Shown here: one piece after another, positions 16,773 to 35,148 of the stretch
Layout of the letters: each line of letters begins with the position of its first letter
How positions within the stretch are numbered: position 1 is the first letter of the stretch
NCBI GenBank assembly: GCA_028710275.1
Contig: JAQTUL010000007.1
Span: 952 to 64,951 of the forward strand
Direction of reading: 5' to 3'
DNA length: 64,000 bases
Origin: Candidatus Colwellbacteria bacterium
GTDB taxonomy: Bacteria; Patescibacteriota; Minisyncoccia; UBA6257; Colwellbacteraceae
The notes under the pieces: model-generated
Databases searched by the model: none
Told to the model about the DNA's origin: nothing
The model's input: only the letters and a program-made list of their open reading frames with translations
Position numbers and translations under genes: made by a program

Positions 16773-16797
16773 ACCCGCCTGATGGCGGGTTTTTTTG
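16773..16797 (+). terminator. rho-independent terminator (ACCCGCC-tgatg-GCGGGT followed by T7)
   Basis: hairpin followed by TTTTTTT after the surface-protein gene; the ATG at 16782 lies inside it. Confidence 0.7.
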
Positions 16798-16853
16798 ATA
16801 TGGGTATCTTAGTGTTTGTATCATTTCCGTCTTTTGGTTTATCATCTTCATAT

Positions 16854-19179: not shown

Positions 19180-20055
19180 GTGGATATAAAAAAGAAGCTT
19201 CCGGCAATAAGAAAGAATATAGAGTCTTTTCTCATAAGTGAGGAAGGGCGCATAAGCAAGAAGAGCGCTCTTGAGCTTGGTATGGGAATAGCCGCGCTTG
19301 GCTTCATGCTTACGCAGTCGATTACATCGGCTCATTATAGTTATTTCGAGAACGTTGCCGGACAAGGGAGACATCAATCGGGAGATGCGGTTCCTCCGCC
19401 ACCGGCGGCAGGAAGCCATACGAGCTATTTTGAAAATACGGCTGGTGGAGGAAGACATTCTTCACATGCTTCACATGCATCCCATGGTTCACACGGTTCT
19501 CATGGGTCTCATTCTTCGCATTCCTCCCATGGTTCACATGGTTCTCATGGTTCGCACAGCTCTCACTCATCTCATGGTTCACACGGTTCTCATGGGTCTC
19601 ATTCTTCGCATTCCTCCCATGGTTCACATGGTTCTCATGGTTCGCACAGCTCTCACTCATCTCATGGTTCACATAGCTCTCATGGTTCTCACTCATCCCA
19701 TGGTTCACATAGCTCTCATGGTTCTCACTCTTCTCACTCTTCACATGGTTCACATGCTTCCCATGGTTCTCATGGTTCACATGCTTCCCATGGTTCTCAT
19801 GGTTCTCACTCTTCTCACTCTTCCCATGGTTCTCATGGTTCGCACAGCTCTCACTCATCTCATGGTTCGCATAGCTCGCACGGTTCGCATGGTTCCCATT
19901 CCTCCCATGGTTCTCATGGCTCCCACTCTTCGCATAGTTCTCATGGCTCCCACTCTTCGCATAGCTCGCATTCTAGCTGTGGTGTCATGATTACAGACAT
20001 GGACTGCTATTCCTGTAATTACGCGGCAGGAGATGTTACAACCGGAGTAGTCTAG
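19180..20055 (+). CDS. hxsA: His-Xaa-Ser repeat protein (HxsA-like putative precursor/substrate)
   Basis: N-terminal hydrophobic segment, two YFEN(V/T)AG.GRH motifs, then about 58 consecutive H-[SGA]-S triplets and a Cys-containing tail (SSCGVMITDMDCYSCNY). Confidence 0.85.
   Translation: MDIKKKLPAIRKNIESFLISEEGRISKKSALELGMGIAALGFMLTQSITSAHYSYFENVAGQGRHQSGDAVPPPPAAGSHTSYFENTAGGGRHSSHASHASHGSHGSHGSHSSHSSHGSHGSHGSHSSHSSHGSHGSHGSHSSHSSHGSHGSHGSHSSHSSHGSHSSHGSHSSHGSHSSHGSHSSHSSHGSHASHGSHGSHASHGSHGSHSSHSSHGSHGSHSSHSSHGSHSSHGSHGSHSSHGSHGSHSSHSSHGSHSSHSSHSSCGVMITDMDCYSCNYAAGDVTTGVV
19456..19977 (+). repeat. coding tandem repeat region of hxsA (9-bp H-x-S units; higher-order 90-bp unit duplicated exactly at 19486..19575 and 19576..19665)
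   Basis: direct reading: the CAT GGT TCN / CAT TCT TCN units are periodic; the 90-nt blocks are identical. Confidence 0.9.
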
Positions 20056-22722: not shown

Positions 22723-23253
22723 ATGGAGACAAAACCGGATATCCGAAAGATAAGGGTGGGCCTACAAAAAGTTAGGGACATATATGCCCTTAGGCGGGGT
22801 TTTACTGATATCCTCGAAGAAAAGATAAGCTCGGAACTCGATAAGGCACTCGGTACTGTTTCCGGACAGCTCGAAGCTTCATTCATTGACGAAGAAGTGA
22901 AGTCCGAGCCAATCGATGCTCCATGGCTAATAAAATTGACCAAGGCGATTGCCGACGCCTCTATTTATAGACAAATTGATGATCAGTTTGCTGATTTTGT
23001 ATCCGAATACTCCATGGTTGTGTCCGCCTGGAACGACCGAGTGGTTCGATCAAGTGAATTAACGAGAGAGCTTGCGGTTGCGGAATCCCTTGCAGTTAGT
23101 CGCCCGGCGATGATCCAAGCAGCAAAGGCACTAAGGGCTCTTTCTGAGAAGCTTATACAGCTTAACTTTATCGAAACCCCAGCTCTTAATATGAGTAAGT
23201 TCTATCTTGATTCGCTTCGGAAAAACTTGGAGAAGAAAGAAGAAAAAGAATAA
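22723..23253 (+). CDS. hypothetical alpha-helical protein between the Hxs-type module and the rSAM paralog array
   Basis: 176-aa ORF on the same strand, tightly packed; no recognisable family. Confidence 0.45.
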   Translation: METKPDIRKIRVGLQKVRDIYALRRGFTDILEEKISSELDKALGTVSGQLEASFIDEEVKSEPIDAPWLIKLTKAIADASIYRQIDDQFADFVSEYSMVVSAWNDRVVRSSELTRELAVAESLAVSRPAMIQAAKALRALSEKLIQLNFIETPALNMSKFYLDSLRKNLEKKEEKE

Positions 23254-23255
23254 AA

Positions 23256-24176
23256 ATGGAGAGAGTTGATATCAAGGTTGGATTCCAATGCAACAATCAT
23301 TGCATCTTCTGTATACAAGGCAACAAGAGGGAATACTGTAAGGACCGGACAGAAGATGAGATAAAGAAAATATTGGAACAGGGTCGGTCCGAAGGAAAGG
23401 AGGCGGTCGTTTTCACGGGCGGCGAGCCAACTTTTCGTCCGAAGCTTCTTCTTAATTGCGTCTCGTATGCAAGGGATATTGGTTATAGGGTCATACAGAT
23501 ACAATCTAATGGGAGGATGTTCGCATATCGGGCATATTGCGAGGAGATAGTCCGGGCGGGAGCTAATGAATTCTCTCCTGCGGTACATGGGTCGGTCGCC
23601 TCTATACATGACCGTCTCACAAACGCGCCCGGAAGTTTTGATCAGGTTACTGCTGGTATTCGAAATCTGAGAGAACTGAGACAATATATTCTTACCAATT
23701 CGGTGGTAACGAAAATAAATATGGAAGATATACCAAATCTAGCGAAGCTGTTGGTCGAGCTTAGGGTAGACCAGTTCCAGTTCGCTTTTATACATATAAA
23801 TCCGATTATTGCAGAAGACCAGAAGCTCATTGAAGAAGTGGTTCCCTCGATGGCCAAGGCCATGCCTTATGTGAAGGCTGGTCTCGATATAGGCCGGAAG
23901 TCGGGAGTTAAGTGCATGACTGAAGCAATTCCCTATTGCATGATGAGAGAGTACGAAGACCTTATCGCCGAGAGGATAATACCAGAAGCTCATGTCTTCG
24001 ATGCTGAGGAGGATATAGAGAAATACAGCGAGTACAGACAGAACGAAGGAAAATCAAAGGGGCCAAGGTGCGTTTCGGAGTGCATTAAGAACGACGTATG
24101 CGAGGGCCCATGGAGGGAATATCCGCAGCTTTTCGGCTGGGAAGAGTTTAAGCCGATAACCGAAGAAAAGATATGA
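23256..24176 (+). CDS. radical SAM enzyme, array paralog 1 (twitch/SPASM-like, MoaA/PqqE-type core)
   Basis: CNNHCIFC cluster motif, FTGGEPT, QSNGR, GSFDQ..GI.NL, C-terminal CVSECIKNDVCEGPW. Confidence 0.8.
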   Translation: MERVDIKVGFQCNNHCIFCIQGNKREYCKDRTEDEIKKILEQGRSEGKEAVVFTGGEPTFRPKLLLNCVSYARDIGYRVIQIQSNGRMFAYRAYCEEIVRAGANEFSPAVHGSVASIHDRLTNAPGSFDQVTAGIRNLRELRQYILTNSVVTKINMEDIPNLAKLLVELRVDQFQFAFIHINPIIAEDQKLIEEVVPSMAKAMPYVKAGLDIGRKSGVKCMTEAIPYCMMREYEDLIAERIIPEAHVFDAEEDIEKYSEYRQNEGKSKGPRCVSECIKNDVCEGPWREYPQLFGWEEFKPITEEKI

Positions 24177-25102
24177 AAAAGCAAGGAGTAATACTGCTAA
24201 GGTGGGCTAATAAATGTAATAACAACTGCGCGATGTGCAGTCTTCATTCAGGAGATAGTGAAGAGGAGGTTATGTCCATCGAAGAAGCGCTCGATTTCAC
24301 GAGAAAAAACGCGGCATCATATCAAAATATCGAGTTCACTGGAGGCGAGCCGACGATAAAGGAGGGTCTCGTCGATCTTGTCGCGGCAGCCAGAGAATCG
24401 GGATATGAGAGAATAGCTATAAGTACTAACGGCAGAAGGCTTTCTGATGAAAATTTTTGCCGTAAACTAATTGATAACGGTCTGAATGCTGTGACCTTCG
24501 CCCTCCATGGGCATGATGTGGAAACTCATGAAAAGAGGATGAGTAGATCGGATGGAGCTTTTAATGAGGCGATACGAGGTCTCAAAAACCTGATTACAGA
24601 ACATTCAGTGTCATTAAACGTCGCATCTGTTCTTGCAAGACATAACCACGAAACCTTCTCGGAGATTGGCAAGATGCTTATAGAGATGGGCGTTAAGCAA
24701 TGGAGTATATCGGACTTAATCCCGGACGGGAGGGCGCAGGATATATATGATTCACTAAGCCTCAGTCCTTCGGAGGCGGAAAAGGCAATAAGCGGCATTC
24801 TGCCTATGGCTGGTCAGATTGGGCTTGTTATATTTAATTTTTCAAGATGTTTTTTCCCGAGGGACCTTGATGACAGGATACTTTTCTTCGATACCAGAGA
24901 TAAAGCTGATCTTTGTAATATAGAGAGAAAGGAAGGCCGCTATGAGAAGGAGGGCGAAGTCTATCACGATTTTCATAAGACATATCTCGGGATATGCGAA
25001 AAATGTCCGGCATATGAGACATGCGGAGGAGTATGGAGAAGAAATATGGAGCTGTACGGAGAGGGGATAATGACCGAAGTAGCTAGAAGAAACGGTTTTT
25101 GA
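24173..25102 (+). CDS. radical SAM enzyme, array paralog 2
   Basis: CNNNCAMC, FTGGEPT, STNGRR, C-terminal CEKCPAYETCGGVW; ATGA overlap with paralog 1. Confidence 0.8.
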   Translation: MKKQGVILLRWANKCNNNCAMCSLHSGDSEEEVMSIEEALDFTRKNAASYQNIEFTGGEPTIKEGLVDLVAAARESGYERIAISTNGRRLSDENFCRKLIDNGLNAVTFALHGHDVETHEKRMSRSDGAFNEAIRGLKNLITEHSVSLNVASVLARHNHETFSEIGKMLIEMGVKQWSISDLIPDGRAQDIYDSLSLSPSEAEKAISGILPMAGQIGLVIFNFSRCFFPRDLDDRILFFDTRDKADLCNIERKEGRYEKEGEVYHDFHKTYLGICEKCPAYETCGGVWRRNMELYGEGIMTEVARRNGF

Positions 25103-25133
25103 TGCCGAGCTCTCCAAAAATAAAAAAAGACAT

Positions 25134-26075
25134 ATGAAAAAACCAGGAATGATATTCGTCAGATGGGCCAACAGATGCAATAACAATTGTGAGATGTGCA
25201 GTCTTCATTCTGACGACAGCAGAGATGAATCGATGTCGTTCGAAGAGGCGGCGGAGTTTACGATAAAAAACATCGATGAATATTCTAATATCGAGTTTAC
25301 GGGAGGCGAACCGACGATAAAGGAGGGCCTTTTAGAGCTTGTCGCTCTGGCGAAGAAGACGGGATACGATAAGATATGTATCAGTACTAACGGCAGAAGG
25401 CTTTCCGATGAAAATTTTTGCCACGCTCTCGCGGAGAACGGCTTGAACGTTGTGACATTTGCTCTTCATGGGCATAATGCTGAGACCCATGAGAGAATGA
25501 GCCGCGTTATCGGTTCTTTTGAAGAGTCGATGGAGGGAATAAAGAATGTTCTTAATGAACCAACGATGGCGCTTGCGATAACATCCGTCTTATCAAGACA
25601 TAACCACGAAACCTTCTCGGAGATTGGCAAGATGCTTATAGAGATGGGCGTTAAGCAATGGAGTATATCGGACTTAATCCCGGACGGGAGGGCGCAGGAT
25701 ATATATGATTCACTAAGCCTCAGTCCTTCGGAAATGGGGAAATCCCTAGCTGAGGCGATCCCTCTTTTTCCCGGTTTCTATCAGGTTGGGATATTTAATT
25801 TTTCAAGATGCTTTTTCCCAGAAGAACTCTATAGGAACGTTGCATTCTTTGATACGAAAGCAAAAGCTGATCTGTGGGATATAGAAGGTAAGGAGGGCCG
25901 CTATGAGAAGGAGGGCGAAGTTTATCACGATTTTCATAAGACATATCTCGGAATATGCGAAAAATGTCCGGCATATGAGACATGCGGAGGAGTATGGAAG
26001 AGAAGTCTGGAACTATATGGGCCTTCAGAAATGGAAAAAATAGCGAGGGTAAACGGTTTTGTGGAGACGGTGTAA
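25134..26075 (+). CDS. radical SAM enzyme, array paralog 3 (recent duplicate of paralog 2)
   Basis: CNNNCEMC, FTGGEPT, STNGRR; C-terminal half nearly identical to paralog 2, including 100%-identical nucleotide patches. Confidence 0.8.
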   Translation: MKKPGMIFVRWANRCNNNCEMCSLHSDDSRDESMSFEEAAEFTIKNIDEYSNIEFTGGEPTIKEGLLELVALAKKTGYDKICISTNGRRLSDENFCHALAENGLNVVTFALHGHNAETHERMSRVIGSFEESMEGIKNVLNEPTMALAITSVLSRHNHETFSEIGKMLIEMGVKQWSISDLIPDGRAQDIYDSLSLSPSEMGKSLAEAIPLFPGFYQVGIFNFSRCFFPEELYRNVAFFDTKAKADLWDIEGKEGRYEKEGEVYHDFHKTYLGICEKCPAYETCGGVWKRSLELYGPSEMEKIARVNGFVETV

Positions 26076-26096
26076 TATAGGATATAAATAAGACCA

Positions 26097-27074
26097 ATGG
26101 AAAAGACAGTATTCATACAATTGAACTCAACGTGCAATCAGCACTGTCTTTTTTGTAATAGGCCGCCGCAATCGGAAAGGAGCCCGGAATATCTAACCTT
26201 CGAACAAGTAATAAAAAAGATAGATGAGTGCGCTGATGATCCGGAGATAATAAGAGTGTGTCTCACCGGAGGGGAGCCGACCTTATATCCGCGTCTTGTT
26301 GAGGCGGTTACCCGTTGTCACGAGAGAGGCAAGCATGTGGAGATACAGACGAACGGGGTTGCCCTAACAAAGGAAAGAATAAAGGAATTGAAAGACGCAG
26401 GCATAGATATAATAAACTTTGCGTTCCATAGTCATAAGAAGGAAATAAGCAACAGGCTGAGAGGTGTCGATTTCGGTTTTGAGAACATAACCGAATCGAT
26501 AAAGGAGGCTAACCGTCTCGGAATAGTGATTCATATAGTGCATGTCATAACGAAGCTGAACTATAAGGATCTACCGGAGTTTATAGACACTTTTTCAGAT
26601 ATGGGACTTGATCTGCCAAAGATGTTCCTTAATCTTTCAATAGTCGTTCCGGATGGATGGGCCTGGGAGAATAAGGATGTGATCGTCCCAAGGATGTCTG
26701 ATATAAAGCCTTATCTAATCGAAGCCTGCCATAAATGCAAAGAATATGGGATAACCTTCGATATTTCGGAGGTGGTTCCGCTGTGCATAGTGGATGGGTA
26801 TGAGGATATGGCGATATCGACGGTCTTCAAGATAAACAACGCTGTTATAGTCGATGATTACCATACAGGTAAAAAATCCCTCGAGTTTGCCGCTGCTGAC
26901 GAGAGCTGGGCTATGAAGGCTCCCCAATGCGTAAAATGTTCCATGAACGAAATATGTGTCGGATTCTACCCTCATCTTTCTGAGATGTACGGCTTCGAAG
27001 ATTATGTTCCGAGAACGGATGATCCGGCCGAGATAATAAGCCGATTTAAGGGACCAGAAGATGACAGGCAATAA
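26097..27074 (+). CDS. radical SAM enzyme, array paralog 4
   Basis: CNQHCLFC, LTGGEPT, QTNG, C-terminal CVKCSMNEICVGFY. Confidence 0.8.
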   Translation: MEKTVFIQLNSTCNQHCLFCNRPPQSERSPEYLTFEQVIKKIDECADDPEIIRVCLTGGEPTLYPRLVEAVTRCHERGKHVEIQTNGVALTKERIKELKDAGIDIINFAFHSHKKEISNRLRGVDFGFENITESIKEANRLGIVIHIVHVITKLNYKDLPEFIDTFSDMGLDLPKMFLNLSIVVPDGWAWENKDVIVPRMSDIKPYLIEACHKCKEYGITFDISEVVPLCIVDGYEDMAISTVFKINNAVIVDDYHTGKKSLEFAAADESWAMKAPQCVKCSMNEICVGFYPHLSEMYGFEDYVPRTDDPAEIISRFKGPEDDRQ

Positions 27075-28035
27075 TAGAGACAATCAAGGTTTTCCAGAGA
27101 GGATCTGCGTCGTGATGACAGGCTTTTCGTGCAACAACAACTGCATCGTCTGCAGCGTTAGGCCTTACGGACGAAATAATCAGGATAGAGAAACGGCTGA
27201 CATAATAAGATCGATGGAGGAGGGAAGAAATAATGGTATTCCGGGAGTCGAGTTCACCGGAGGCGAACCGACCATGAGAAGAGATATTCTTGCCCTTATA
27301 TCGAAAGCGAAGGAGCTTGGCTATAAGGAAATAGCTTTAAGTACCAATGCAAGAGCATTCGGATACGAGAAGTTCGCGGATGCCGCGATAGAGAGCGGAC
27401 TTAATAGGGTTACGTCCACTATCGACGGTCACAGCGCAGTAGCTCATGATGCGCTGACGAGGACGCCTGGATCATTTGATCAGACGATACAAGGCATAAA
27501 GAATCTCGTTGCCCGCGGGATGAGAATCAGCGTCAATACGGTATTCTGTAAGATGACCGCGCCGAACCTATCTGACATAGGCCGGACCATAACCGATCTC
27601 GGAGTACCCGTGTGGGGAATATTAGACCTGATTCCGGACGGTAATATAGCGGAGATATATCCCGATTTCGTAGTCACTCTTAATGATACATACACCGCTC
27701 TTGATTCCATATATGATATAGCGAGGGAAATAGACCACGTTAATCTCTTTGATTTTCCTATTTGCGCCATACCGGAAAGACTTCGGATATCAAAGCATGC
27801 GGCGGTTTTTGATGCCTTTTCGCGTTCTGATCTTCTGAAGCAGACGGGTTATGACCCTCAGAGGTTCACTGAGGTGGAAGGAAATTACAGCGATATATAT
27901 AAGACGAGACTTAATGGATGCTTATCCTGCCTTAAGAAAGAGGATTGCGCCGGGATATGGAACAGATATATTGACGTTTATGGTAAGGAGGGCGCGGAAG
28001 ATTTCATCACGGACCATAAGGTAGGGAAACAATAA
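27061..28035 (+). CDS. radical SAM enzyme, array paralog 5
   Basis: CNNNCIVC, FTGGEPT, STNAR, TPGSFDQTIQGIKNL, C-terminal CLSCLKKEDCAGIW; 14-nt overlap with paralog 4. Confidence 0.8.
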   Translation: MTGNNRDNQGFPERICVVMTGFSCNNNCIVCSVRPYGRNNQDRETADIIRSMEEGRNNGIPGVEFTGGEPTMRRDILALISKAKELGYKEIALSTNARAFGYEKFADAAIESGLNRVTSTIDGHSAVAHDALTRTPGSFDQTIQGIKNLVARGMRISVNTVFCKMTAPNLSDIGRTITDLGVPVWGILDLIPDGNIAEIYPDFVVTLNDTYTALDSIYDIAREIDHVNLFDFPICAIPERLRISKHAAVFDAFSRSDLLKQTGYDPQRFTEVEGNYSDIYKTRLNGCLSCLKKEDCAGIWNRYIDVYGKEGAEDFITDHKVGKQ

Positions 28036-28051
28036 GGTTGCTGAATCTTAA

Positions 28052-29266
28052 ATGGAGAACAATATCAAAAAGATAGAGGAAATATGTAAGGACAAGAAGA
28101 TAGAACGCAACACCGGCAGTGAAGGCGCTAACAAGGTTATCTATCTCAATCTTGGGGCCCAATGCAATCAGAACTGTAATTTTTGTCTTATAAAAGGGAG
28201 TGAGGGTAATTTTCCATTCATGCCTCTCGTTGAAGCAAAAAGGATAATAAAGGATTTTGCCGAGAGTGGCGGAGAGATGCTTATGATAACAGGAGGCGAG
28301 CCGACTCTCTATCCCGAACTGGATGAGGTTATAGCCTTTGCGGATCTTTTTCCGGGAATAAAACAGGTTTCCATATTAACGAACGCGACCGCCTTTGCCG
28401 ATGGGCTATACACTGAGAAGATAATAGGACGAGATAAATCTAATAAGCTTGGATTTTCGGTCTCCTTTCATTCTCATATCGCAGAAGTCTCGGATAAGAT
28501 AACTCAGGGAATGCCGGGGGATTACGGAAGGACGGTCTCCGGCCTTGCTAATATATCCAAATGGAACAGACAAATATCCGTCTATCACGCGATAGTCTCA
28601 GATAATTTCAATCTCCTTCCTGATTTCGTCGAATGGATAAATGTTAATTTTCCGAACATAAATTCGGTTGTGATGGCTTATCCTTTTCCTCAAGGGAACG
28701 CTGATAAGAATTCCTGGATATACGTTAAATTTACGGAGCTTAAACCTTATTTACTGAAAGCGCTGCATTTTCTTAGAGAAAAAAATATCAGTTCTAATAT
28801 AGCGACCTGCGGACAATTTCCATTATGTATCATACCCGAGTTTGAGGAAAAGGTGCTGAACATGCTGATATTTTTCAGAAAGAATGTCGCGGGTACTGTC
28901 GGTAAAGACGTTTTTCATGAGACGGAATGGTCATCGGAGAAATGGATAAATAACTATAAGAATAAATCTCCTCAGTGTGACCAATGTATCCTTAATGAAG
29001 TTTGTCAGGGCTTTTGGAAAAAATACACGGACATATTTGGTTTTGACGGGGTATCTCCGGTTACCAGGAAGACTTTTGAGGGAAATATCGTCAAGATTGA
29101 TCTCAATACCGAAAATGTCTTTGATCGCGTGATGGCGAGGATATTATGGGAGAGGTTAAACCTTATAATAGCGAAAGGGGACGATGTGATGATATCTAGG
29201 CTGAAGGATGCTCTTGCGGACAATGGAGTTCCGGCAGTTGTGATAAGGGATGACGAAGAGGTCTAA
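28052..29266 (+). CDS. radical SAM enzyme, array paralog 6 (longer, 404 aa, with N- and C-terminal extensions)
   Basis: CNQNCNFC, ITGGEPT, C-terminal CDQCILNEVCQGFW. Confidence 0.75.
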   Translation: MENNIKKIEEICKDKKIERNTGSEGANKVIYLNLGAQCNQNCNFCLIKGSEGNFPFMPLVEAKRIIKDFAESGGEMLMITGGEPTLYPELDEVIAFADLFPGIKQVSILTNATAFADGLYTEKIIGRDKSNKLGFSVSFHSHIAEVSDKITQGMPGDYGRTVSGLANISKWNRQISVYHAIVSDNFNLLPDFVEWINVNFPNINSVVMAYPFPQGNADKNSWIYVKFTELKPYLLKALHFLREKNISSNIATCGQFPLCIIPEFEEKVLNMLIFFRKNVAGTVGKDVFHETEWSSEKWINNYKNKSPQCDQCILNEVCQGFWKKYTDIFGFDGVSPVTRKTFEGNIVKIDLNTENVFDRVMARILWERLNLIIAKGDDVMISRLKDALADNGVPAVVIRDDEEV

Positions 29267-29292
29267 AAAGGACTTGGGAAAAGATACATAAA

Positions 29293-30267
29293 ATGGATAT
29301 AACCGAGGCATACAAGAAGATACACGATATAACCGCGGCCATACCGATAAACGGGGAGGAAATATTAGGTGTTTACATAGGGATAAAGCCGGCGATGGCC
29401 GAGGCAAATACTGGGATATACAACGCTGATTTTCTAAGGAAGATGAGCGTAGTGAACTCTATATGCGGAGAGCTGGGTCTGAAGCTTGCTGTGTCGAAAT
29501 ATAAGTACGTCATAAATAGCCCAAGAGGCATATTTAAGGAGGTATTAAGAGACGACCCGGCGCCCGGATGTTTAATAATAGGTATAGCGAGAGATATGGA
29601 GAAGGCAGTAAGCGGCGTTGCTCATTATCATCTCAAGATGCATCATAGCAAGTATGGAAGGAGCTTCGCTGAGCTTATGGGATATCCTTCCTGTTGTATA
29701 GATTTTGGCGACTATCTCGCCAACAATAAAGGTGATCCGGATAATTTCGGGTTCAAAAATCCGGCAATTGAGGTACTCAAGAGGTCGGATAAAGTTGCCT
29801 GGCAGTTAAACGTTTTTTCTACATCTTCAATGCTTTCGCATTTTCCTTGCAGTTATACCTGCAAGAAGAGTATTGATTATATGAACTCTCTATTAGGCGC
29901 TATAAAGGAGGCCGATCTAGAACATGGCAGGGTGGTGGAAGATAACCTAAAACAGGATATTTCAGTATATTGGAGCTGTGTAGATAAGGTGATGCTTCGC
30001 GGAGATTTTATAAAAAAGGACTCGCTTTTCAGGGAAGGGGAGGCTAGATACGAGAGTATAAAATGGCCGATAGGATCAGAAAACTTTTATCAGGAGGTGG
30101 ACAGCGAGTATCTAGACGGGATGAAGACTATATGGAGGTCGATGGGGGAAGGAGACTGTATAAAGATATCAAAGAACAGCGTTTCAGTATTCAAGGGTGA
30201 TGATGAGATAGGACTTTTCGAGAAAGATAGCCAGTATTCACCGGTAATAGTAAGAGCCGATGCCTGA
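29293..30267 (+). CDS. hypothetical Cys/His-containing protein embedded in the rSAM array (not a radical SAM)
   Basis: 324-aa ORF lacking CxxxCxxC; HYHLKMHH, PSCCIDFGDY, FPCSYTCKK; 8-nt overlap with the next rSAM. Confidence 0.5.
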   Translation: MDITEAYKKIHDITAAIPINGEEILGVYIGIKPAMAEANTGIYNADFLRKMSVVNSICGELGLKLAVSKYKYVINSPRGIFKEVLRDDPAPGCLIIGIARDMEKAVSGVAHYHLKMHHSKYGRSFAELMGYPSCCIDFGDYLANNKGDPDNFGFKNPAIEVLKRSDKVAWQLNVFSTSSMLSHFPCSYTCKKSIDYMNSLLGAIKEADLEHGRVVEDNLKQDISVYWSCVDKVMLRGDFIKKDSLFREGEARYESIKWPIGSENFYQEVDSEYLDGMKTIWRSMGEGDCIKISKNSVSVFKGDDEIGLFEKDSQYSPVIVRADA

Positions 30268-31114
30268 CGAAAAAGATTTCATAAGCCCATACGTATATGT
30301 AGGTTTTCATTGCAATAATAATTGCATTTTTTGCAGTGAGGCTGATGAATATCTAGACGGAAGATTAGAGAAGGACTTTGATGATATCAAACATGAGATA
30401 GACCTTGTGAGGACCGGATACGATTTTGTAAATCTGATGGGTCGTGAGCCCACTCTCAGAAAGGATATCCTTTCCGTGGTTTCTTATGCGAAGAGTGTCG
30501 GTTTTAGACAGGTTGGCCTTACGACGAATGCCAGGATGTTATCGTACGCTCCTTTTGCTGAGGCTATCATAGGGTCTGGATTAAACCAGATAGGAATATC
30601 TCTTCTCGGCGCGACGGCCAAAACCCATGACCTTCTTTCGGCTGCTGAAGGGAGTTATGCTCAGACGATTGAAGGCATAAAGAATGTGATGAGATTTAAG
30701 GGGCCGGACCTGAGTGTTCTCGTAAACATCCCCCTTAACAGAAAGAACGTGTCCGAGCTGGAGGATGAGATAGATCTTCTAATATCTCTAGGGGTGAAAG
30801 AGATAAACGTGTTGTGGGTAGCCCCTCTTAGCCGAAGATCCAGGGATAAGGAACTTATCGGAAGGATGAGTGAACTCGGAAACCATGCTGCCAGGATTAT
30901 AAAAAATCATTTAGGAGAGGCAAAGTTTCTGATGGTCGAGTTCCTTCCTTGTAGCCTAAAAAAAGAATATAGAGATATGTTCTTTCCGTGCCTTGAGAAA
31001 AATCCGTCAAAAATAAGAATAACTTTATGTGGCGGATGTCCCTACGTCGACAAATGCGACGGAGTCCTTTCAAGCTATATTGATATGTACGGCGATGAAG
31101 AGTTTGAAATATAG
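30260..31114 (+). CDS. radical SAM enzyme, array paralog 7
   Basis: CNNNCIFC, GREPT, TTNAR, GSYAQTIEGIKNV, C-terminal CGGCPYVDKCDGV. Confidence 0.8.
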   Translation: MPDEKDFISPYVYVGFHCNNNCIFCSEADEYLDGRLEKDFDDIKHEIDLVRTGYDFVNLMGREPTLRKDILSVVSYAKSVGFRQVGLTTNARMLSYAPFAEAIIGSGLNQIGISLLGATAKTHDLLSAAEGSYAQTIEGIKNVMRFKGPDLSVLVNIPLNRKNVSELEDEIDLLISLGVKEINVLWVAPLSRRSRDKELIGRMSELGNHAARIIKNHLGEAKFLMVEFLPCSLKKEYRDMFFPCLEKNPSKIRITLCGGCPYVDKCDGVLSSYIDMYGDEEFEI

Positions 31115-31214
31115 GACCAGGTCTTCTTTATTGTGGATAGTGTTGTTTCAAAACGCCTGGTGTTAACATATAATCAATACATAAACCAAAAGAAAGCCTT
31201 TAAATAAAATAAAA

Positions 31215-31754
31215 ATGAAAAAATCTTATTATCTCGTCATAGCTCTTTTTGTGGCCGTAGCAGTATTTGTTGGGGGGGTACTTGTATACATGAATAAGGG
31301 AGTTTCGGTACCTTCTGATACCGTGCAGGAAAACATACAGACCGGCGAAGCCCCGACTATTCCGCCTGTGGATGATAAAGGAAAGTCTCCTGAGTTTAAG
31401 ACTACCTATAAGGGAAGGGACATAACCGCCAATCCCGATTACCAGATTGGCATTCTTGATGGAAAACTAGCTAAGGACCCGGACGTTGTTAATAAGACAA
31501 TATCGATGGATGTGGACATAATGAAGATATTTCCTAATATGGACATTGAGCAGCTGAATACCATTATTTCCGTATCAGGCGCTAAGTTTTTCGTGAAAGT
31601 CGGAAATGCTGAGCCTACAGAAGCGAGCTTGTCCGATCTTAAAGAAGGGGATGTAGTGAACGTTGGACTTGTCGATGGCCAGACGAATAGAGACATCGTC
31701 AAAGAGGGAAGCAAACTCACCGCTCAGCAGGTCTATAAGTTTATAATTCAATAA
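31215..31754 (+). CDS. membrane-anchored (signal-anchor) hypothetical protein within the rSAM array
   Basis: N-terminal TM helix YYLVIALFVAVAVFVGGVLVYM followed by a soluble domain; terminator follows. Confidence 0.5.
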   Translation: MKKSYYLVIALFVAVAVFVGGVLVYMNKGVSVPSDTVQENIQTGEAPTIPPVDDKGKSPEFKTTYKGRDITANPDYQIGILDGKLAKDPDVVNKTISMDVDIMKIFPNMDIEQLNTIISVSGAKFFVKVGNAEPTEASLSDLKEGDVVNVGLVDGQTNRDIVKEGSKLTAQQVYKFIIQ

Positions 31755-31773
31755 TTACCTATGGTGATAAGAG

Positions 31774-31802
31774 CCGACTCGATTAACTCGAGTCGGTTTT
31801 TT
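31774..31802 (+). terminator. rho-independent terminator inside the rSAM array (CCGACTCGA-ttaac-TCGAGTCGG followed by T6)
   Basis: perfect 9-bp stem followed by TTTTTT; followed by a TATAAT-like box at 31825..31832. Confidence 0.7.
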
Positions 31803-31838
31803 GTCCTTTTCTGTATCTCTTGTATATAATTCCGACTA

Positions 31839-32816
31839 ATGCCCCCAGATATAATAAAGAAAACAGTCGTATTTGCCGGATACAGATGTAACAACAACTG
31901 CCGGTTTTGTATGGAAGCTGATAAGAGAGATTTGCCTGTGAGGGGTACTGCTGTAATCAAGGGCGAGCTTAAATCAGCTAGAGAAAGGGGGTCTGATTAT
32001 ATCGAGATTATCGGAGGGGAGGCCGCAATGAGGTCTGACATAACATCAATCATCTCCTATGCCAAGGATTTGGGCTTTTCGACCATTATGATGGCTACGA
32101 ACGGCAGAATGTTTTCCTATCCGGAACTTACAAAGCGGCTCATCGATGCTGGGCTTAATAGCCTTGTTTTCTCGATACATGGAGCCGATGCGGAGACTCA
32201 TGACTACCTCACTCGGTCGCCTGGCAGTTTCGATCAATTGATAGTCGGGATGGAGAATGTGAAAAATGCGGCTATTATCTCGGGAGCCAGAATATCGCTG
32301 GGGTCGAATACCTGCATAGTAAAGGATAATTACCGTCAGCTTCCGGCAATCAGTGAGCTTATAGCTTCTTCTGGCGTTGGGAATTCAGAGTTTATATTCG
32401 TAGACTGCAACGAGGGAGGGGCGAAGAACAGTTTTGATGAGCTCGTTCCGAAGATATCTGACGCAGCTCCTTATATGAGAGAGTGTCTTGATATCGGAAA
32501 CAGAAATAAGGCTGATCATTGGGATGTCAGATATGTGCCCTTATGCTATTTTCCGGATCATCTGAATAGGATAAGTGAATTACATGAGGCAAAGACCTTT
32601 CATACGGAACATATCGCCCAGGATTTCGTGAATACCGATGCGCAAAGCGGTCGCAAGAATGTAGGGAGGAGAAAATCAAGAAGGTGTTCCGAGTGTATTC
32701 TCGACCCATGGTGTGAGGGAATATGGAGAACATATATCTCACGCTATGGAGATGATGAGCTTATTCCCATTACTGAGCTGACAGTTGGTCAAAAAGAGAT
32801 GCTTGATGGGCTCTAA
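31839..32816 (+). CDS. radical SAM enzyme, array paralog 8
   Basis: CNNNCRFC, IGGEAA, ATNGRMFSY, SPGSFDQLIVGMENV, C-terminal CSECILDPWCEGIW. Confidence 0.8.
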   Translation: MPPDIIKKTVVFAGYRCNNNCRFCMEADKRDLPVRGTAVIKGELKSARERGSDYIEIIGGEAAMRSDITSIISYAKDLGFSTIMMATNGRMFSYPELTKRLIDAGLNSLVFSIHGADAETHDYLTRSPGSFDQLIVGMENVKNAAIISGARISLGSNTCIVKDNYRQLPAISELIASSGVGNSEFIFVDCNEGGAKNSFDELVPKISDAAPYMRECLDIGNRNKADHWDVRYVPLCYFPDHLNRISELHEAKTFHTEHIAQDFVNTDAQSGRKNVGRRKSRRCSECILDPWCEGIWRTYISRYGDDELIPITELTVGQKEMLDGL

Positions 32817-32858
32817 TTCCGATATTTCGGGCAAAATGGTATCATTTACGAAATAGTC

Positions 32859-33056
32859 ATGGAAAAAGAGTACATAATCACCTATAGGAGCGAAGAGCAT
32901 TTTGAAGTTGTTGGTTGGGTAAAGGCCGAGTCTATGGAAGAGGCCAAAGAGCTGGCCAGAAACGTGCTCGCCAAAGAAGCGTCTTTTTATGGCGTGACCG
33001 AGGCAGAGATAGCCGAATACGGAACGTCGGAGACGATGAGCTTCGAAGAGAAGTAA
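32859..33056 (+). CDS. small acidic protein (65 aa), candidate precursor peptide or partner protein, TAATG-coupled to the next rSAM
   Basis: ORF ends with TAA overlapping the ATG at 33056; highly acidic, no Cys. Confidence 0.4.
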   Translation: MEKEYIITYRSEEHFEVVGWVKAESMEEAKELARNVLAKEASFYGVTEAEIAEYGTSETMSFEEK

Positions 33057-33985
33057 TGGATGTCTGCGTCTGGAACAGGTGCAATAACAGGTGTGTTATG
33101 TGTACTAATCCCGAAGGTTTCGGGGACGTTTCTTTGAGTGGACCTTATTCTTATGAGGGGGTTCTTTCGAGGGTATTAAGGATAAAAGACATTCCCGATT
33201 CGGCTGCTGAGGCTATATGTCTTACCGGAGGTGAGCCGACCTCCCATCCTGAGTTTCTAAGATTGGTCTCAACAATCAAGAGGGAGCTTCCTAATAATCA
33301 GCTAATACTTGCCACGAATGGCAGAATGTTCGCATATGAGGAGTTTGCCAGAAAATATCTTGCAATCGGTAGCTCGAAGATAGAAATACCGATACATGGA
33401 TCAGAGGCCAGACTCCATGATGCCATAACGTGCGTGAAGGGAAGTTTTGAACAGACTATCCAGGGGATAGAAAACATATTGAAGTACATGTCATTTGAGC
33501 ATGAGCTCGAAATAAGACTTGTTCTTACAAAGATAAATTTACATGATACGCGGGCGATACTGGATCTTGTTAAAGAAAGTTTTCCAAGGATAACCAGAGT
33601 GGTAGTGATATTCCCTGAATTCGAGGGTATGTGCGCCAAGAATATGGAGGTGGTCGGGCTTAAATATTCGGATGTTAAGGAGGAGATGACGGGATTGATA
33701 TCCGAATGGAAAGAATCTTTCGATGGTTTAAGCCTATATCATTTCCCATTATGTTCCCTTCCGGTCGGCCTTTGGGGATATGCCTGGAGGACATTGAGAG
33801 GGAATGAGATAATGTTTCCTGAACAATGTAATGGGTGCCGTTTTAAAAAATATTGTCTGGGCGTACACGTAGATTATGCCAAACTTATAGGTACAGATGA
33901 GTTTATGCCTCCGACAGGGAATATAAAGATAAAAGAGAATAATGGTCCGGATAGGGAATATCACCCGATAATCGAAGCTATATAA
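33056..33985 (+). CDS. radical SAM enzyme, array paralog 9 (start set at Met48 of the longer track ORF)
   Basis: CNNRCVMC, LTGGEPT, ATNGRMFAY, GSFEQTIQGIENI, C-terminal CNGCRFKKYCLGVH; the upstream in-frame extension is Arg-rich junk overlapping the small ORF. Confidence 0.75.
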   Translation: MDVCVWNRCNNRCVMCTNPEGFGDVSLSGPYSYEGVLSRVLRIKDIPDSAAEAICLTGGEPTSHPEFLRLVSTIKRELPNNQLILATNGRMFAYEEFARKYLAIGSSKIEIPIHGSEARLHDAITCVKGSFEQTIQGIENILKYMSFEHELEIRLVLTKINLHDTRAILDLVKESFPRITRVVVIFPEFEGMCAKNMEVVGLKYSDVKEEMTGLISEWKESFDGLSLYHFPLCSLPVGLWGYAWRTLRGNEIMFPEQCNGCRFKKYCLGVHVDYAKLIGTDEFMPPTGNIKIKENNGPDREYHPIIEAI

Positions 33986-33996
33986 AATAATCAACA

Positions 33997-35148
33997 ATGG
34001 GAATAACGATATTTTTGGCAGCTCCCGCGCTCATATTAATAGGGGTGATATCCTCTTATACCGATCTTAAGTACGGTCGCATACCTAATTGGTTGATAAT
34101 ATTCGGTTTTGTGTATGCTATCTGCCTGTATTCTTTCCTATTCGGATACAATGCTTTCTTTCTTCATCAAGCGGTAAACGGGGCATATATTTTAAAGGCT
34201 TTACAGAACACAGCAATCGCCTTTGTCTCTGGGGTTATATTATGGAAAATGAGTTTCTGGTCAGCTGGCGATGCCAAGCTTTTTGCTGTCTATGCGGCTA
34301 TTCTTCCGCTAGAAGCCTATATGAATGGATACGTTGATCAGTTTCCCTCCTTTAATCTCCTGGTAAATCTTTTCTTTCCACTGGTACTAGTTCTTATAAT
34401 AAAGGCTATCTGGTTTGCTATTAAAACATGGTTTCCGTTAATCAAAAACGGTTCATGGAAAGAAGAGATAAAGATAAAAGACATACCGATGATGGCATTG
34501 AAGGGCGCATTAGCCCTTCTTAAGTTATTTGGTAACTTCTTCTTCATGTACCTTATCTTTATGACGGTTGGGCAGATAGTATCTTTCATCTCTCATGGGA
34601 CATTCAAGATAGATCCTTTCATAATGTATTTTGGAATATTAGCCATCATGGGAAGGTTCAATGCGATACAGAAAAAATATAAACTAGCAAAGTTCGGGGT
34701 ATATTCTATATCTGCCGGATATCTAACTTATCTCCTTATTCTCGCTCAATACGCGACTCTCAGAAAGATGATTGTGATGGCTCTAGTATTCATGGTCGCG
34801 ATAACAGTGACCAGGAAGATTCTTGATATATATATTCAAAAAGCCGAAATAAAAGAAGTTGTAGTCAAAAGCCTCGTCCGAGGGACAATGCTTCATTCAT
34901 CTGAGATGTCTGCCATAAAGAATGAGCTAGTGGAGAACGGAAGAGGGGAGGAATTCGGTTGGTTCGAGCCCGGCGGACTAAAAGAATCACAGGTTCTGAT
35001 AATAAAAGAGATCTTTTCTGATAGGGAAGAAACGATATTTAGGGCATATAGAACCTTTCCATTCGCTCCTTTCCTATCCCTTTCGGTAATTATAACCATG
35101 ATAACCGGGATATCGTTCATAAAATATTTTCAGGTATTCATGAAATAA
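33997..35148 (+). CDS. polytopic membrane protein with N-terminal A24 prepilin-peptidase-like (TadV/CpaA/FlaK-type) aspartic protease domain plus a long C-terminal extension
   Basis: first Asp motif YTDLKYGRIPNWL (D...RIPN) and second Asp motif SAGDAKLFA (GxGD-like) in TM helices; about 8 TM helices in total. Confidence 0.55.
   Translation: MGITIFLAAPALILIGVISSYTDLKYGRIPNWLIIFGFVYAICLYSFLFGYNAFFLHQAVNGAYILKALQNTAIAFVSGVILWKMSFWSAGDAKLFAVYAAILPLEAYMNGYVDQFPSFNLLVNLFFPLVLVLIIKAIWFAIKTWFPLIKNGSWKEEIKIKDIPMMALKGALALLKLFGNFFFMYLIFMTVGQIVSFISHGTFKIDPFIMYFGILAIMGRFNAIQKKYKLAKFGVYSISAGYLTYLLILAQYATLRKMIVMALVFMVAITVTRKILDIYIQKAEIKEVVVKSLVRGTMLHSSEMSAIKNELVENGRGEEFGWFEPGGLKESQVLIIKEIFSDREETIFRAYRTFPFAPFLSLSVIITMITGISFIKYFQVFMK

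What the first reader, a model, noticed from the sequence alone, without database searches (positions are those of the whole stretch)
23256..33985. Tandem array of nine paralogous ~300-aa radical SAM enzymes (CNNxC.FC / C-terminal CxxCx5C..G.W) of unassigned family
Seen in sequence: nine same-strand genes (23256, 24173, 25134, 26097, 27061, 28052, 30260, 31839, 33056) each carry an N-proximal CxxxCxxC motif of the form CN(N/Q)(N/H/R)C.(F/M)C, a (F/L)TGGEPT SAM-binding motif, an (S/T)TN(G/A)R loop, a G(S/A)F(D/E)Q..GI.N(L/V/I) segment, and a conserved C-terminal Cys triad CxxCx5C followed by G.W. Most starts overlap or abut the preceding stop (ATGA, TAATG, 8- and 14-nt overlaps), which indicates translational coupling. 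With the three upstream enzymes this makes 12 rSAM genes in about 18 kb. Established knowledge: this core resembles twitch/SPASM-type enzymes (MoaA, PqqE, sactisynthases) that modify peptides or proteins. Inference: this is a battery of maturases acting on a shared or repeated substrate (the 58-repeat HxsA is an obvious candidate), or a RiPP-like system with several precursors. I know of no described system with this architecture.
Basis: partly seen in the sequence, partly recalled or inferred. Interest (0 to 1): 0.9.

Follow-up and report, generated by a model that had tools for sequence, protein, structure and literature searches.

The report
Expanded HxsC radical-SAM maturase cluster
A tiny candidate-phyla-radiation bacterium carries nine anciently diverged copies of the radical-SAM enzyme HxsC next to a secreted protein made of 58 His-x-Ser repeats. 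This is a conserved, greatly enlarged and apparently undescribed version of the four-gene HXS system, which was recently shown to block phage DNA entry in E. coli.

Summary
Nine + strand radical SAM (rSAM) genes lie at the stated coordinates, with real homology between them (BLASTP E 1e-8 to 1e-168). They are 22-34% identical, apart from one 70% pair.

Two details need correcting.
- The array is interrupted by three non-rSAM genes.
- The family is not unassigned. All nine hit HxsC4 and HxsC best or near-best in NCBIfam, all below cutoff, and they share every HxsC signature motif. They lack the ~100-aa N-terminal domain of canonical HxsC.

The window comes from a Candidatus Colwellbacteria MAG. 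Upstream lie bona fide HxsD, an HxsD-like protein, HxsB and HxsA4 (58 uninterrupted HxS triplets), followed by two further rSAM genes that score only weakly against SPASM-type peptide maturases.

Each paralog falls in its own orthogroup (41-67% identity for those sampled widely) across Colwell-, Nealson-, Portnoybacteria and other Patescibacteria. C9 is sister to canonical HxsC.

Loci anchored on the conserved HxsA4 leader carry HxsD and HxsB upstream in 27/28 cases each, and HxsC-like genes downstream in 18/19. An A24 aspartic peptidase closes the cluster in 17/17 long loci. Gene fusions (three rSAM domains in one protein; u324+C8; C9+u324) point to a physically coupled enzyme battery.

Best reading: an expanded "type-4" Hxs maturation machine acting on HxsA4. 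I rate it a new variant of a known kind. Chemistry and biological role are untested.

The parts
16782..17333 (+). HxsD. It has a CPR-type C-terminal extension ending in the conserved DPLGIAVPWEDKY motif. The true start is probably about 70 nt downstream of 16782.
   Evidence: TIGR03976 scores 62 bits against a cutoff of 50. Alignment with 6 CPR and 4 canonical HxsD sequences. A terminator-like hairpin at 16770-16793 and a promoter-like site at 16795-16824 lie immediately upstream.
17334..17543 (+). HxsD-like small protein (69 aa)
   Evidence: NF038315 scores 60.6 bits against a cutoff of 41. hhalign against HxsD gives probability 94%.
17550..19040 (+). HxsB, the rSAM/SPASM maturase of the His-Xaa-Ser system
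   Evidence: TIGR03978 scores 475.9 bits against a cutoff of 370. 30% identity to Klebsiella HxsB over 463 aa, E 6e-60.
19180..20055 (+). HxsA4, the predicted substrate. It has a conserved leader (KKxPxIKKNIxxFLxSEEGKISKK), a hydrophobic segment, an AxA-like site, 58 uninterrupted HxS triplets (aa 93-266) and a 25-aa Cys-rich tail.
   Evidence: NF038313 scores 101 bits against a cutoff of 55. Repeat count. Imperfect DNA repeats at 19461-19971. Leader conserved across 42 unique homologs.
20089..21369 (+). Divergent rSAM with CPLNCSYC and only weak similarity to PapB/SPASM-type peptide maturases (SP1)
   Evidence: PF04055 scores 36.8 bits. Only weak PapB-type hits in NCBIfam. Homologs occur in L028, L092 and L099.
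21366..22706 (+). Divergent rSAM/SPASM-like enzyme with CPFGCKYC (SP2). It overlaps SP1 by 4 nt.
   Evidence: PF04055 scores 29.9 bits. TIGR04085 SPASM scores 23 bits, below its cutoff of 27.
22723..23253 (+). u176, a 176-aa protein of unknown function. Its membership in the system is uncertain.
   Evidence: No Pfam or NCBIfam hit. No homolog in any related locus.
23256..24176 (+). C1, an HxsC-family rSAM paralog (306 aa)
   Evidence: HxsC4 147.9 bits and HxsC 95.3 bits. Its own orthogroup shows 53-64% identity in CPR loci, and 48-50% in the most divergent ones (L027, L030, L031).
24173..25102 (+). C2, an HxsC-family paralog. It is a recent duplicate of C3, and the pair branches beside the C5 orthogroup.
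   Evidence: 70% identity to C3. NJ tree.
25134..26075 (+). C3, an HxsC-family paralog
   Evidence: HxsC4 122.4 bits and HxsC 108.9 bits..
26097..27074 (+). C4, an HxsC-family paralog
   Evidence: HxsC 83 bits. Orthogroup at 51-57% identity. Elsewhere it is fused in triple-domain proteins.
27061..28035 (+). C5, an HxsC-family paralog
   Evidence: HxsC4 134 bits. Orthogroup at 37-48% identity.
28052..29266 (+). C6, an HxsC-family paralog with a ~70-aa C-terminal extension (404 aa)
   Evidence: HxsC 101 bits. Orthogroup at 43-49% identity.
29293..30267 (+). u324, a conserved accessory protein with four invariant Cys (GYPxCC ... PCSxxC). It is weakly DUF483-like.
30260..31114 (+). C7, an HxsC-family paralog (GGE motif replaced by GRE)
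   Evidence: HxsC4 110.5 bits. Orthogroup at 41-59% identity in genome loci, plus a 68% partial match.
31215..31754 (+). u179, a membrane-anchored 179-aa protein. It looks like a lineage-specific insertion with its own promoter-like site and a strong terminator-like hairpin.
   Evidence: Found in only one other locus, L005. Terminator-like hairpin with a 14-bp stem at 31769-31801.
31839..32816 (+). C8, the most widely conserved HxsC-family paralog
32859..33056 (+). s65, a small conserved protein that lies upstream of C9, directly so in most loci. It is a likely C9 partner subunit.
   Evidence: 17 orthologs in related loci. In most of them it sits directly upstream of C9. Only 7 clusters among 1.84 billion representatives. 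No similarity to HxsD or to the HxsC N-terminal domain.
33056..33985 (+). C9, the paralog closest to canonical HxsC
   Evidence: TIGR03977 scores 175.7 bits, the best of the nine. E 1e-27 against Klebsiella HxsC. tblastn hits annotated hxsC genes. Sister to canonical HxsC in the NJ tree.
33997..35148 (+). A24-family (prepilin-peptidase-type) aspartic membrane peptidase. It is a conserved terminal gene of the cluster.
   Evidence: PF01478 scores 36.4 bits against a gathering score of 26.5. Both catalytic-Asp motifs are invariant in 30/30 sequences. Present in 17/17 loci of at least 17 kb.

Best explanation
The nine genes are anciently diverged members of the HxsC family, the second radical-SAM maturase of the His-Xaa-Ser (Hxs) system. 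With HxsD, an HxsD-like protein, HxsB, two further divergent rSAM genes (weakly SPASM-like), the Cys-rich accessory protein u324, the small protein s65 and an A24 aspartic peptidase, they form an expanded 'type-4' Hxs cluster. The cluster spans about 18.4 kb (16782-35148) and is conserved across Patescibacteria.

Its substrate is HxsA4, a leader-bearing exported protein whose core is 58 consecutive HxS triplets.

Shown here:
- Family relationship to HxsC.
- Orthogroup structure of the paralogs.
- Synteny and co-occurrence with the Hxs genes.
- Gene fusions between components.
- Intact catalytic motifs.

Inferred:
- Each paralog uses its CxxxCxxC [4Fe-4S] cluster and SAM to generate a 5'-deoxyadenosyl radical.
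- A C-terminal four-Cys site holds an auxiliary Fe-S cluster.
- Each paralog performs a distinct, non-redundant step or site class of covalent modification on the His/Ser repeats. The enzymes work as a physically associated battery that docks on the conserved HxsA4 leader.
- The leader and signal segment are then removed, by the A24 peptidase and/or signal peptidase, and the heavily modified poly-HxS chain is displayed outside the cell.

By analogy with E. coli HXS (PMC13128918), its role may be an envelope barrier against phage DNA entry. That step is the least certain.
For: Family. HxsC4 and HxsC are the best or near-best NCBIfam hits for all nine. All signature motifs are shared with Klebsiella HxsC. 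C9 retrieves annotated hxsC genes from 465 plasmid records.

System. HxsD, the HxsD-like protein, HxsB and HxsA4 all score above their curated cutoffs immediately upstream.

Non-redundancy. Each paralog has its own ortholog in other genomes. For those sampled widely the ranges are C1 53-64%, C4 51-57%, C6 43-49%, C7 41-59% and C8 49-67%, against 22-34% between paralogs. The NJ tree of 144 sequences resolves separate clades, with canonical HxsC sister to C9.

Linkage to the substrate. Of loci anchored on the HxsA4 leader, 27/28 have HxsB upstream, 27/28 have HxsD upstream, and 18/19 have HxsC-like genes downstream.

Physical coupling. L045 encodes a 1055-aa protein with C5-like, C4 and C6 domains. 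L093 encodes u324+C8. L106 encodes C9+u324.

Catalytic competence. CxxxCxxC, the GGE-motif E and the C-terminal Cys triad are invariant across 52 sequences, and the fourth Cys is nearly invariant. The AF2 model is confident (pLDDT 95) and has an rSAM core.

Processing. The A24 catalytic Asp motifs are invariant in 30/30 sequences, and the gene is present in 17/17 long loci. The leader is conserved across 42 unique HxsA4 homologs and found on no other ORF.

Functional precedent. HxsB, HxsC and HxsD mature HxsA in E. coli (+8 Da on an HxS repeat, N-terminal processing, export), and HxsC binds HxsD (PMC13128918).
Against: None of the nine reaches the HxsC cutoff (best 175.7 against 267.9) or the HxsC4 cutoff (best 151.7 against 500). 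All lack the ~100-aa N-terminal domain of canonical HxsC.

Portnoybacteria-type loci (L002, L021, L023) carry 6-7 paralogs and A24 but no Hxs gene within 10 kb. They sit beside GT2, carbamoyltransferase and GDSL-lipase genes. Only 8/17 long C8-anchored loci show HxsB within the flank, although the window itself would fail that test because HxsA4 lies 11.8 kb from C8.

HxsA4 has no room for the peptidoglycan-binding domain of E. coli HxsA. Canonical HXS is found 99.7% in Pseudomonadota, so the defence role may not transfer.

No chemistry, Fe-S content, protein-protein contact or cleavage site was tested. The NJ tree has no support values.
Confidence: 0.72

Rival explanations
1. The HxsC-like array, or most of it, is not dedicated to HxsA4. 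It modifies a different substrate, such as a cell-envelope glycan, nucleotide sugar or lipid, or another exported protein. Only C9, or a few paralogs, would serve the Hxs system.
For: Portnoybacteria-type loci have the array and A24 next to GT2, carbamoyltransferase and GDSL-lipase genes, with no Hxs gene in the 10-kb flanks. A conserved ~170-aa membrane protein sits before A24 in L002 and L023. In L001 a GT2 and a PMT_2 gene lie inside the array. The closest solved folds include the small-molecule enzymes viperin, BlsE, GDGT-MAS and MoaA. The C8-s65-C9-A24 module appears to be a separate transcription unit.
Against: The best named relatives by sequence are HxsC4 and HxsC, not sugar or lipid enzymes. 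HxsA4-anchored loci nearly always carry the paralogs (18/19). The structural matches cover only the generic rSAM core and also include the peptide maturases SkfB, SuiB and anSME. Absence of Hxs genes in a 10-kb flank does not show absence from the genome.
Confidence: 0.17
2. The paralogs are functionally redundant or rapidly diversifying copies, for example an arms-race expansion. They would catalyse the same reaction on the many repeats, amplified for dosage or robustness.
For: C2 and C3 are a recent 70% duplicate pair. Copy number varies from 3 to 10 per locus. The substrate has 58 near-identical repeats.
Against: Apart from C2/C3, each copy belongs to an orthogroup kept at 41-67% identity across CPR lineages while paralogs are only 22-34% identical. 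That is a pattern of long-term retention of distinct functions. CPR genomes are small: the complete Nealsonbacteria chromosome that carries the array is 653,831 bp. Ordered fusions of different orthogroups suggest complementary rather than redundant roles.
Confidence: 0.07
3. Housekeeping cofactor enzymes (MoaA, QueE, NirJ or AhbD type), or an assembly artefact.
For: The source annotation of one homolog reads 'cyclic pyranopterin...'. There are sub-threshold hits to MoaA, AhbD and NirJ.
Against: MoaA-model scores are 43-85 bits against cutoffs of 231-325, and AhbD scores are 44-93 against 500. An independent assembly reproduces the order at 99.97% identity. Orthologous arrays exist in dozens of other MAGs and in two complete chromosomes.
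Confidence: 0.01

Closest known systems
Canonical His-Xaa-Ser (HXS) system HxsD-HxsB-HxsC-HxsA (Haft and Basu's TIGR03976-03979 families; antiphage function shown by Li et al. 2026, PMC13128918)
   Same: HxsD and HxsB score above their curated cutoffs. The substrate is an HxS-repeat protein. The HxsC-type enzymes carry the same CNNxCxFC, GGEP, TNGR, GxFxxxxxGxxN, PxC and CxxCx5CxG motifs. The substrate has an N-terminal region that is expected to be processed and exported.
   Different: There are nine HxsC-like genes rather than one, and all lack the HxsC N-terminal domain. Two more rSAM genes with weak SPASM-type similarity are present, along with the extra components u324, s65 and an A24 peptidase. 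The substrate has 58 repeats (3-61 in relatives) against 5, and no peptidoglycan-binding domain. The gene order is D-B-A-...C rather than D-B-C-A. The host is Patescibacteria rather than Pseudomonadota, where 99.7% of canonical systems occur and 99.8% of them have four genes.
NCBIfam HxsA4 (NF038313) and HxsC4 (NF038332, 'rSAM_rare_HxsC4')
   Same: The window's repeat protein passes the HxsA4 cutoff. HxsC4 is the top-scoring named family for six of the nine paralogs.
   Different: No paralog here, and none of the five HxsC-like proteins tested from related loci, reaches the HxsC4 cutoff of 500 bits (best 171). These are therefore distinct, unnamed HxsC-like subfamilies. I found no paper that mentions HxsA4 or HxsC4.
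Multi-rSAM RiPP clusters with repeated-core precursors, such as SPASM/twitch peptide maturases of the PapB, SkfB, SuiB and anSME type
   Different: The nine have no SPASM or twitch model hit, and four C-terminal Cys rather than seven. The substrate is a ~290-aa protein rather than a short peptide. I know of no cluster with a comparable number of same-family maturases; that statement rests on my own knowledge and was not tested.

Membership tests
Radical SAM superfamily (PF04055) | CxxxCxxC cluster motif and a Pfam score above the gathering threshold | tested here: met
   All nine score 51-103 bits against 29.5. CxxxCxxC is invariant.
HxsC (TIGR03977) | Score at or above the curated cutoff of 267.9 bits | tested here: not met
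   Scores are 67-176 bits. The best is C9 at 175.7.
HxsC (TIGR03977) | Signature motifs of the catalytic and C-terminal Cys region shared with bona fide HxsC | tested here: met
   Klebsiella HxsC has CNNLCLFC, SGGEPL, LTNGRKF, GAFNETVKGLINA, YPLC and CDECTQKSSCAG, matching the nine.
HxsC (TIGR03977) | N-terminal domain of ~100-120 aa preceding the CxxxCxxC motif | tested here: not met
   In canonical HxsC the motif starts at residue 101-123. In the nine it starts at residue 9-38. Neither s65 nor u324 resembles that domain.
HxsC (TIGR03977) | Genomic association with HxsB, HxsD and an HxS-repeat protein | tested here: met
   All three score above cutoff in the same + strand cluster. Co-occurrence is 27/28, 27/28 and 18/19 in related loci.
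HxsC4 (NF038332) | Score at or above the curated cutoff of 500 bits | tested here: not met
   The nine score 71-152 bits. Five HxsC-like relatives from other loci score at most 171 bits.
SPASM / twitch rSAM | SPASM domain model hit (PF13186 or TIGR04085) and a seven-Cys CX9-15GX4C...CX2CX5CX3C...C pattern | tested here: not met
   None of the nine hits a SPASM model. Each has only four C-terminal Cys, in the pattern PxC ... Cx2-3Cx5C.
SPASM / twitch rSAM | An auxiliary Fe-S cluster bound by the C-terminal Cys | not testable with these tools
This needs Fe/S analysis and EPR.
MoaA / housekeeping cofactor rSAM | Score above the curated cutoffs (231-325 bits) | tested here: not met
   MoaA-model scores are 43-85 bits across the nine.
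HXS antiphage defence system (Li et al. 2026) | Four-gene D-B-C-A operon in which HxsA carries a peptidoglycan-binding domain | tested here: not met
   The order here is D-Drel-B-A-...-C1..C9. HxsA4 ends 25 aa after the repeats, and no such domain was reported by NCBIfam.
HXS antiphage defence system (Li et al. 2026) | Protection against phage by blocking DNA entry | not testable with these tools
   The PADLOC 2023 library gave only generic pVip-level rSAM hits for the ten cluster proteins searched. No hits in IMG/VR.
Peptidase A24 (gene 33997-35148) | Pfam score above the gathering threshold and two catalytic Asp motifs | tested here: met
   36.4 bits against 26.5. D23 (YTDxKYGxIPN) and D92 (AGDAKLF) are invariant in 30/30 sequences.

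The most novel reading that the evidence does not exclude
Patescibacteria use a conserved battery of seven or more distinct HxsC-type radical-SAM enzymes, plus the previously unstudied partners u324 and s65, as an assembly-line-like complex. This complex would convert a ribosomally made poly(His-x-Ser) protein into a densely cross-linked or heterocyclised extracellular polymer. That would be a new class of protein-derived envelope material, serving as a phage-DNA-entry barrier or as a metal- or host-binding surface in organisms that otherwise have minimal genomes.
Probability: 0.3. Interest if true: 0.85.

Novelty: new variant of a known kind. Interest (0 to 1): 0.62.

Why it matters
The chemistry of the Hxs modification is still unsolved. 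Even in E. coli only a +8 Da shift is known, and in vitro reconstitution failed (PMC13128918).

A natural system with 58 target repeats and a dozen separable enzymes offers far more signal and a stepwise set of intermediates, so the chemistry becomes more tractable.

It also shows that Hxs systems are not essentially confined to Pseudomonadota as four-gene cassettes. CPR bacteria with chromosomes of about 0.65 Mb devote at least 13 kb, or at least 2% of the genome, to an expanded version. That implies strong selection on a surface or defence trait in these episymbionts.

It adds two conserved protein families with no detectable annotation: u324, which has a confident AF2 model but no PDB fold match, and s65. 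It also provides several unnamed HxsC-like subfamilies that annotation pipelines currently label only 'radical SAM protein'.

Tried and rejected
- s65 as an HxsD homolog, or as a detached HxsC N-terminal domain. hhalign probabilities were below 1%.
- u324 as a homolog of the HxsC N-terminal domain, HxsD, s65 or u176. No similarity.
- Identifying true HxsC4 among the paralogs or their relatives. None reaches the cutoff. The ~370-aa rSAM between HxsB and HxsA4 in L038 and L045 is an SbtM/ACGX/AhbD-like SPASM enzyme, not an HxsC.
- PADLOC. Only generic viperin-level rSAM similarity.
- Other leader-bearing precursors. The SEEGKISKK-type leader occurs only on HxsA4 homologs, and the intergenic gaps in the array are too short for hidden peptides.
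- Phage carriage. No relatives in IMG/VR for either the leader or the enzymes.
- Literature. No paper was found on HxsA4/HxsC4 or on rSAM arrays in CPR. The Haft and Basu 2011 paper is not held.
- An exact-sequence look-up of the window's HxsB found nothing on record.
- The assembly-artefact and housekeeping-enzyme readings were rejected.

Full report
**Observation.**
Each passes the Pfam Radical_SAM gathering score. All-vs-all BLASTP gives E-values of 1e-8 to 1e-168. Identities are only 22-34%, apart from the 24173/25134 pair at 70%.

The invariant columns in the nine-way alignment are the three CxxxCxxC cysteines, the N that follows the first of them, a G and the E of the GGE motif, the N of the TN loop, a C-terminal Cx2-3Cx5CxG and one further G. 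A fourth upstream Cys ('FPxC') is present in every copy. The start/stop overlaps are as described.

The array is not strictly tandem. It is interrupted by a 324-aa gene (29293-30267), a 179-aa gene (31215-31754) and a 65-aa gene (32859-33056). An independent Logan assembly reproduces window 26799-37858 at 99.97% identity with no gaps. Together with the low identity between paralogs, this excludes a collapsed-repeat artefact.

**Source and neighbours.**
C8 is identical to a protein from a Candidatus Colwellbacteria MAG on a 68,444-bp contig. Upstream, four genes score above their curated NCBIfam cutoffs:
- 16782-17333 is HxsD (62 bits against 50).
- 17334-17543 is an HxsD-like protein (60.6 against 41).
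- 17550-19040 is HxsB (476 against 370).
- 19180-20055 is HxsA4 (101 against 55).

HxsA4 residues 93-266 are 58 uninterrupted HxS triplets, with x being G 29 times, S 25 times and A 4 times across the protein. They are encoded by imperfect DNA repeats. The genes at 20089 and 21366 are divergent rSAM enzymes whose matches to PapB/SPASM-type maturases are only weak. They are not HxsB and HxsC. 22723-23253 has no family hit. Downstream, 33997-35148 is a Peptidase_A24 protein (36.4 bits against 26.5).

**Family of the nine.**
NCBIfam places HxsC4 (NF038332) and HxsC (TIGR03977) at or near the top for all nine. All scores are below cutoff: 71-152 bits against 500, and 67-176 against 267.9. C9 scores best against HxsC. 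tblastn of C9 against plasmids returns 465 records, and nine of the ten listed hits lie on genes annotated hxsC.

Its CxxxCxxC starts at residue 101, and at 101-123 across four canonical HxsC sequences. In the nine paralogs it starts at residue 9-38. The paralogs are therefore HxsC-family catalytic domains without the canonical N-terminal domain. MoaA, AhbD and NirJ scores fall far below their cutoffs. No SPASM model hits the nine.

**Conservation.**
C8 has 762 detectable homologs. Its orthologs are mostly 53-67% identical, in Nealson-, Portnoy-, Colwellbacteria and other Patescibacteria. I examined two context look-ups and 28 genome loci.

In these, each window paralog finds its own ortholog. 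For the paralogs sampled widely the ranges are C1 53-64%, C4 51-57%, C6 43-49%, C7 41-59% and C8 49-67%. C5 (37-48%) and C9 (mostly 38-56%) are more divergent. Similarity to the other paralogs stays near 25-30%.

An NJ tree of 144 HxsC-like sequences resolves separate C1, C4, C5, C6, C7, C8 and C9 clades, plus further clades absent from the window. C2 and C3 are a window-specific duplicate pair branching beside the C5 clade. Canonical HxsC is sister to the C9 clade. The tree has no support values.

Loci of at least 17 kb hold 3-10 HxsC-like domains, with a median of 7. The A24 peptidase is present in 17/17 of them and s65 in 11/17. The recurrent core is C8-s65-C9-A24. In the window this core appears to be its own transcription unit, behind a 14-bp-stem terminator-like hairpin and a promoter-like site at 31769-31830.

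**Link to HxsA4.**
HxsA4 homologs share a strongly conserved N-terminus, KKxPxIKKNIxxFLxSEEGKISKKxxLxLGxxLAxLGxxL...SA, followed by H-x-S. It reads as a conserved leader, a hydrophobic segment and an AxA-like site. No other ORF in any locus carries it.

A metagenome scan with this leader found 118 relatives. Where enough flank exists:
- HxsB is upstream in 27/28 loci.
- HxsD is upstream in 27/28 loci.
- HxsC-like genes are downstream in 18/19 loci.

The reverse test is weaker. Hxs genes lie within 10 kb of C8 in 8/17 long loci. That figure is a lower bound, because in the window itself HxsA4 is 11.8 kb from C8.

Portnoybacteria-type loci are the real exception. They have 6-7 paralogs and A24 next to glycosyltransferase, carbamoyltransferase and GDSL-lipase genes, with no Hxs gene in view. 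Whether HxsA4 lies elsewhere in those genomes could not be tested.

**Accessory proteins and fusions.**
- **s65** lies upstream of C9, directly so in most loci. It has only 7 related clusters among 1.84 billion representatives. It resembles neither HxsD nor the HxsC N-terminal domain.
- **Fusions** occur in other genomes: a 1055-aa protein with C5-like, C4 and C6 domains, a u324+C8 protein, and a C9+u324 protein. Such fusions suggest that different orthogroups and u324 act together physically.
- **The A24 peptidase** keeps both catalytic Asp motifs in 30/30 sequences.

**Mechanism.**
Shown: this is an HxsC-family expansion embedded in a bona fide Hxs cluster, with non-redundant orthogroups, intact catalytic motifs and tight genomic linkage to a leader-bearing poly-HxS protein.

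[quoted passage not shown] HxsC binds HxsD. Mature HxsA blocks phage DNA entry. In that survey 99.8% of systems have four genes and 99.7% are in Pseudomonadota.

Inferred for this locus:
- The paralogs each carry out a distinct radical step, or act on a distinct site class, on the His/Ser repeats, docking through the conserved leader.
- The four C-terminal Cys bind an auxiliary cluster.
- The A24 peptidase and/or signal peptidase removes the N-terminal segment.
- The modified polymer is displayed outside the cell.

A defence role is plausible by analogy but uncertain. HxsA4 lacks a peptidoglycan-binding domain, and PADLOC (2023) gives nothing specific. No relatives were found in viral contigs.

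**Rivals.**
- A non-HxsA substrate, such as a glycan, nucleotide sugar or lipid, remains possible mainly because of the Portnoybacteria-type loci (confidence about 0.17).
- Redundancy is disfavoured by the long-term retention of distinct orthogroups in very small genomes and by the ordered fusions (about 0.07).
- The housekeeping-enzyme and artefact readings are rejected (about 0.01).

**Novelty.**
NCBIfam already has HxsA4 and HxsC4 models, so curators have seen this substrate class. No paper in the searched library mentions either model, or any multi-HxsC or CPR rSAM array. I rate this a new variant of a known kind, with an interest score of 0.62. It is a conserved Hxs system with about a dozen rSAM genes, two uncharacterised partner families and a dedicated A24 peptidase. 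In the complete 653,831-bp Nealsonbacteria chromosome the homologous cluster occupies at least 2% of the genome.

Noticed in passing
window 15315-16760: A 481-aa secreted protein with 'GNVGIG'-type repeats and a C-terminal four-Cys domain (NLCHLVSY...CPAGYYTW...MLCCKVDNPL). Shorter homologs of this C-terminal part (50-60% identity) sit just upstream of HxsD in 6/17 HxsA4-anchored loci. In the window a terminator-like hairpin separates it from HxsD. It could be another client or partner of the system.
   Followed up: partly
window 16782-17333; L010, L015, L020, L022, L029, L032: CPR HxsD proteins are 130-183 aa, against ~90-120 aa for the four canonical HxsD sequences. They end in a conserved acidic tail with the motif DDPLGIAVPWE(D/E)KY, which is absent from Klebsiella, Aeromonas and Nostoc HxsD. 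It may be a docking peptide for the many HxsC-like enzymes.
   Followed up: no
L045 12622-15789; L093 9260-11185; L106 448-2445; also L001 4567-7539, L016 and L017: Multi-domain fusions occur in related loci: a triple rSAM protein (C5-like + C4 + C6, 1055 aa), u324+C8 (641 aa) and C9+u324-like (665 aa). Proteins of 990-1151 aa in other genomes were not dissected.
   Followed up: partly
L038 9995, L039 3148, L043 3094; L044-L048, L063, L080, L093: HxsA4 cores vary widely. Some have HSSC repeats instead of HxS (ending ...HSSCHSSCHLSCSCTCAT). Some have only 3-9 HxS. Long forms of ~500 aa add a C-terminal region ending SFVLKSKGYY. The accompanying rSAM sets differ between these types.
   Followed up: no
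L002, L021, L023 (Portnoybacteria-type loci): The array and A24 lie next to GT2, carbamoyltransferase, DUF5989 and GDSL-lipase genes, with no Hxs gene within 10 kb. In L002 and L023 a conserved ~170-aa membrane protein (precomputed Pfam hit Ig_Rha78A_N in L002; motif GWWGWGD) sits just before A24. This may mark a different substrate.
   Followed up: partly
L030 (MAG labelled Campylobacterales) and L031 (MAG labelled archaeon): Near-identical five-gene HxsC-like arrays with u324, C8-type at 42% identity, appear in bins with non-CPR labels. This could reflect mis-binning or horizontal transfer.
   Followed up: no
window 22723-23253 and 31215-31754: Two ORFs inside the cluster have no family hit. 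u176 has no homolog in any related locus. u179 is found only in L005, and has its own promoter-like site and a 14-bp-stem terminator-like hairpin at 31769-31801.
   Followed up: partly
window 19298-19990 (+) and 19322-19858 (-): Long ORFs in other frames and on the opposite strand across the HxsA4 repeat region are by-products of the triplet repeat (P/T/L-rich or G/M/R-rich translations). They are not genes.
   Followed up: yes
window 13115-15195 and 35243-37814: The flanking genes look unrelated. Upstream are a membrane GT2-family glycosyltransferase and a cupredoxin-like protein. Downstream are a small ferredoxin and the two subunits of a 2-oxoacid:ferredoxin oxidoreductase. The OFOR pair also follows A24 in L006, L008, L014 and L017.
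   Followed up: no
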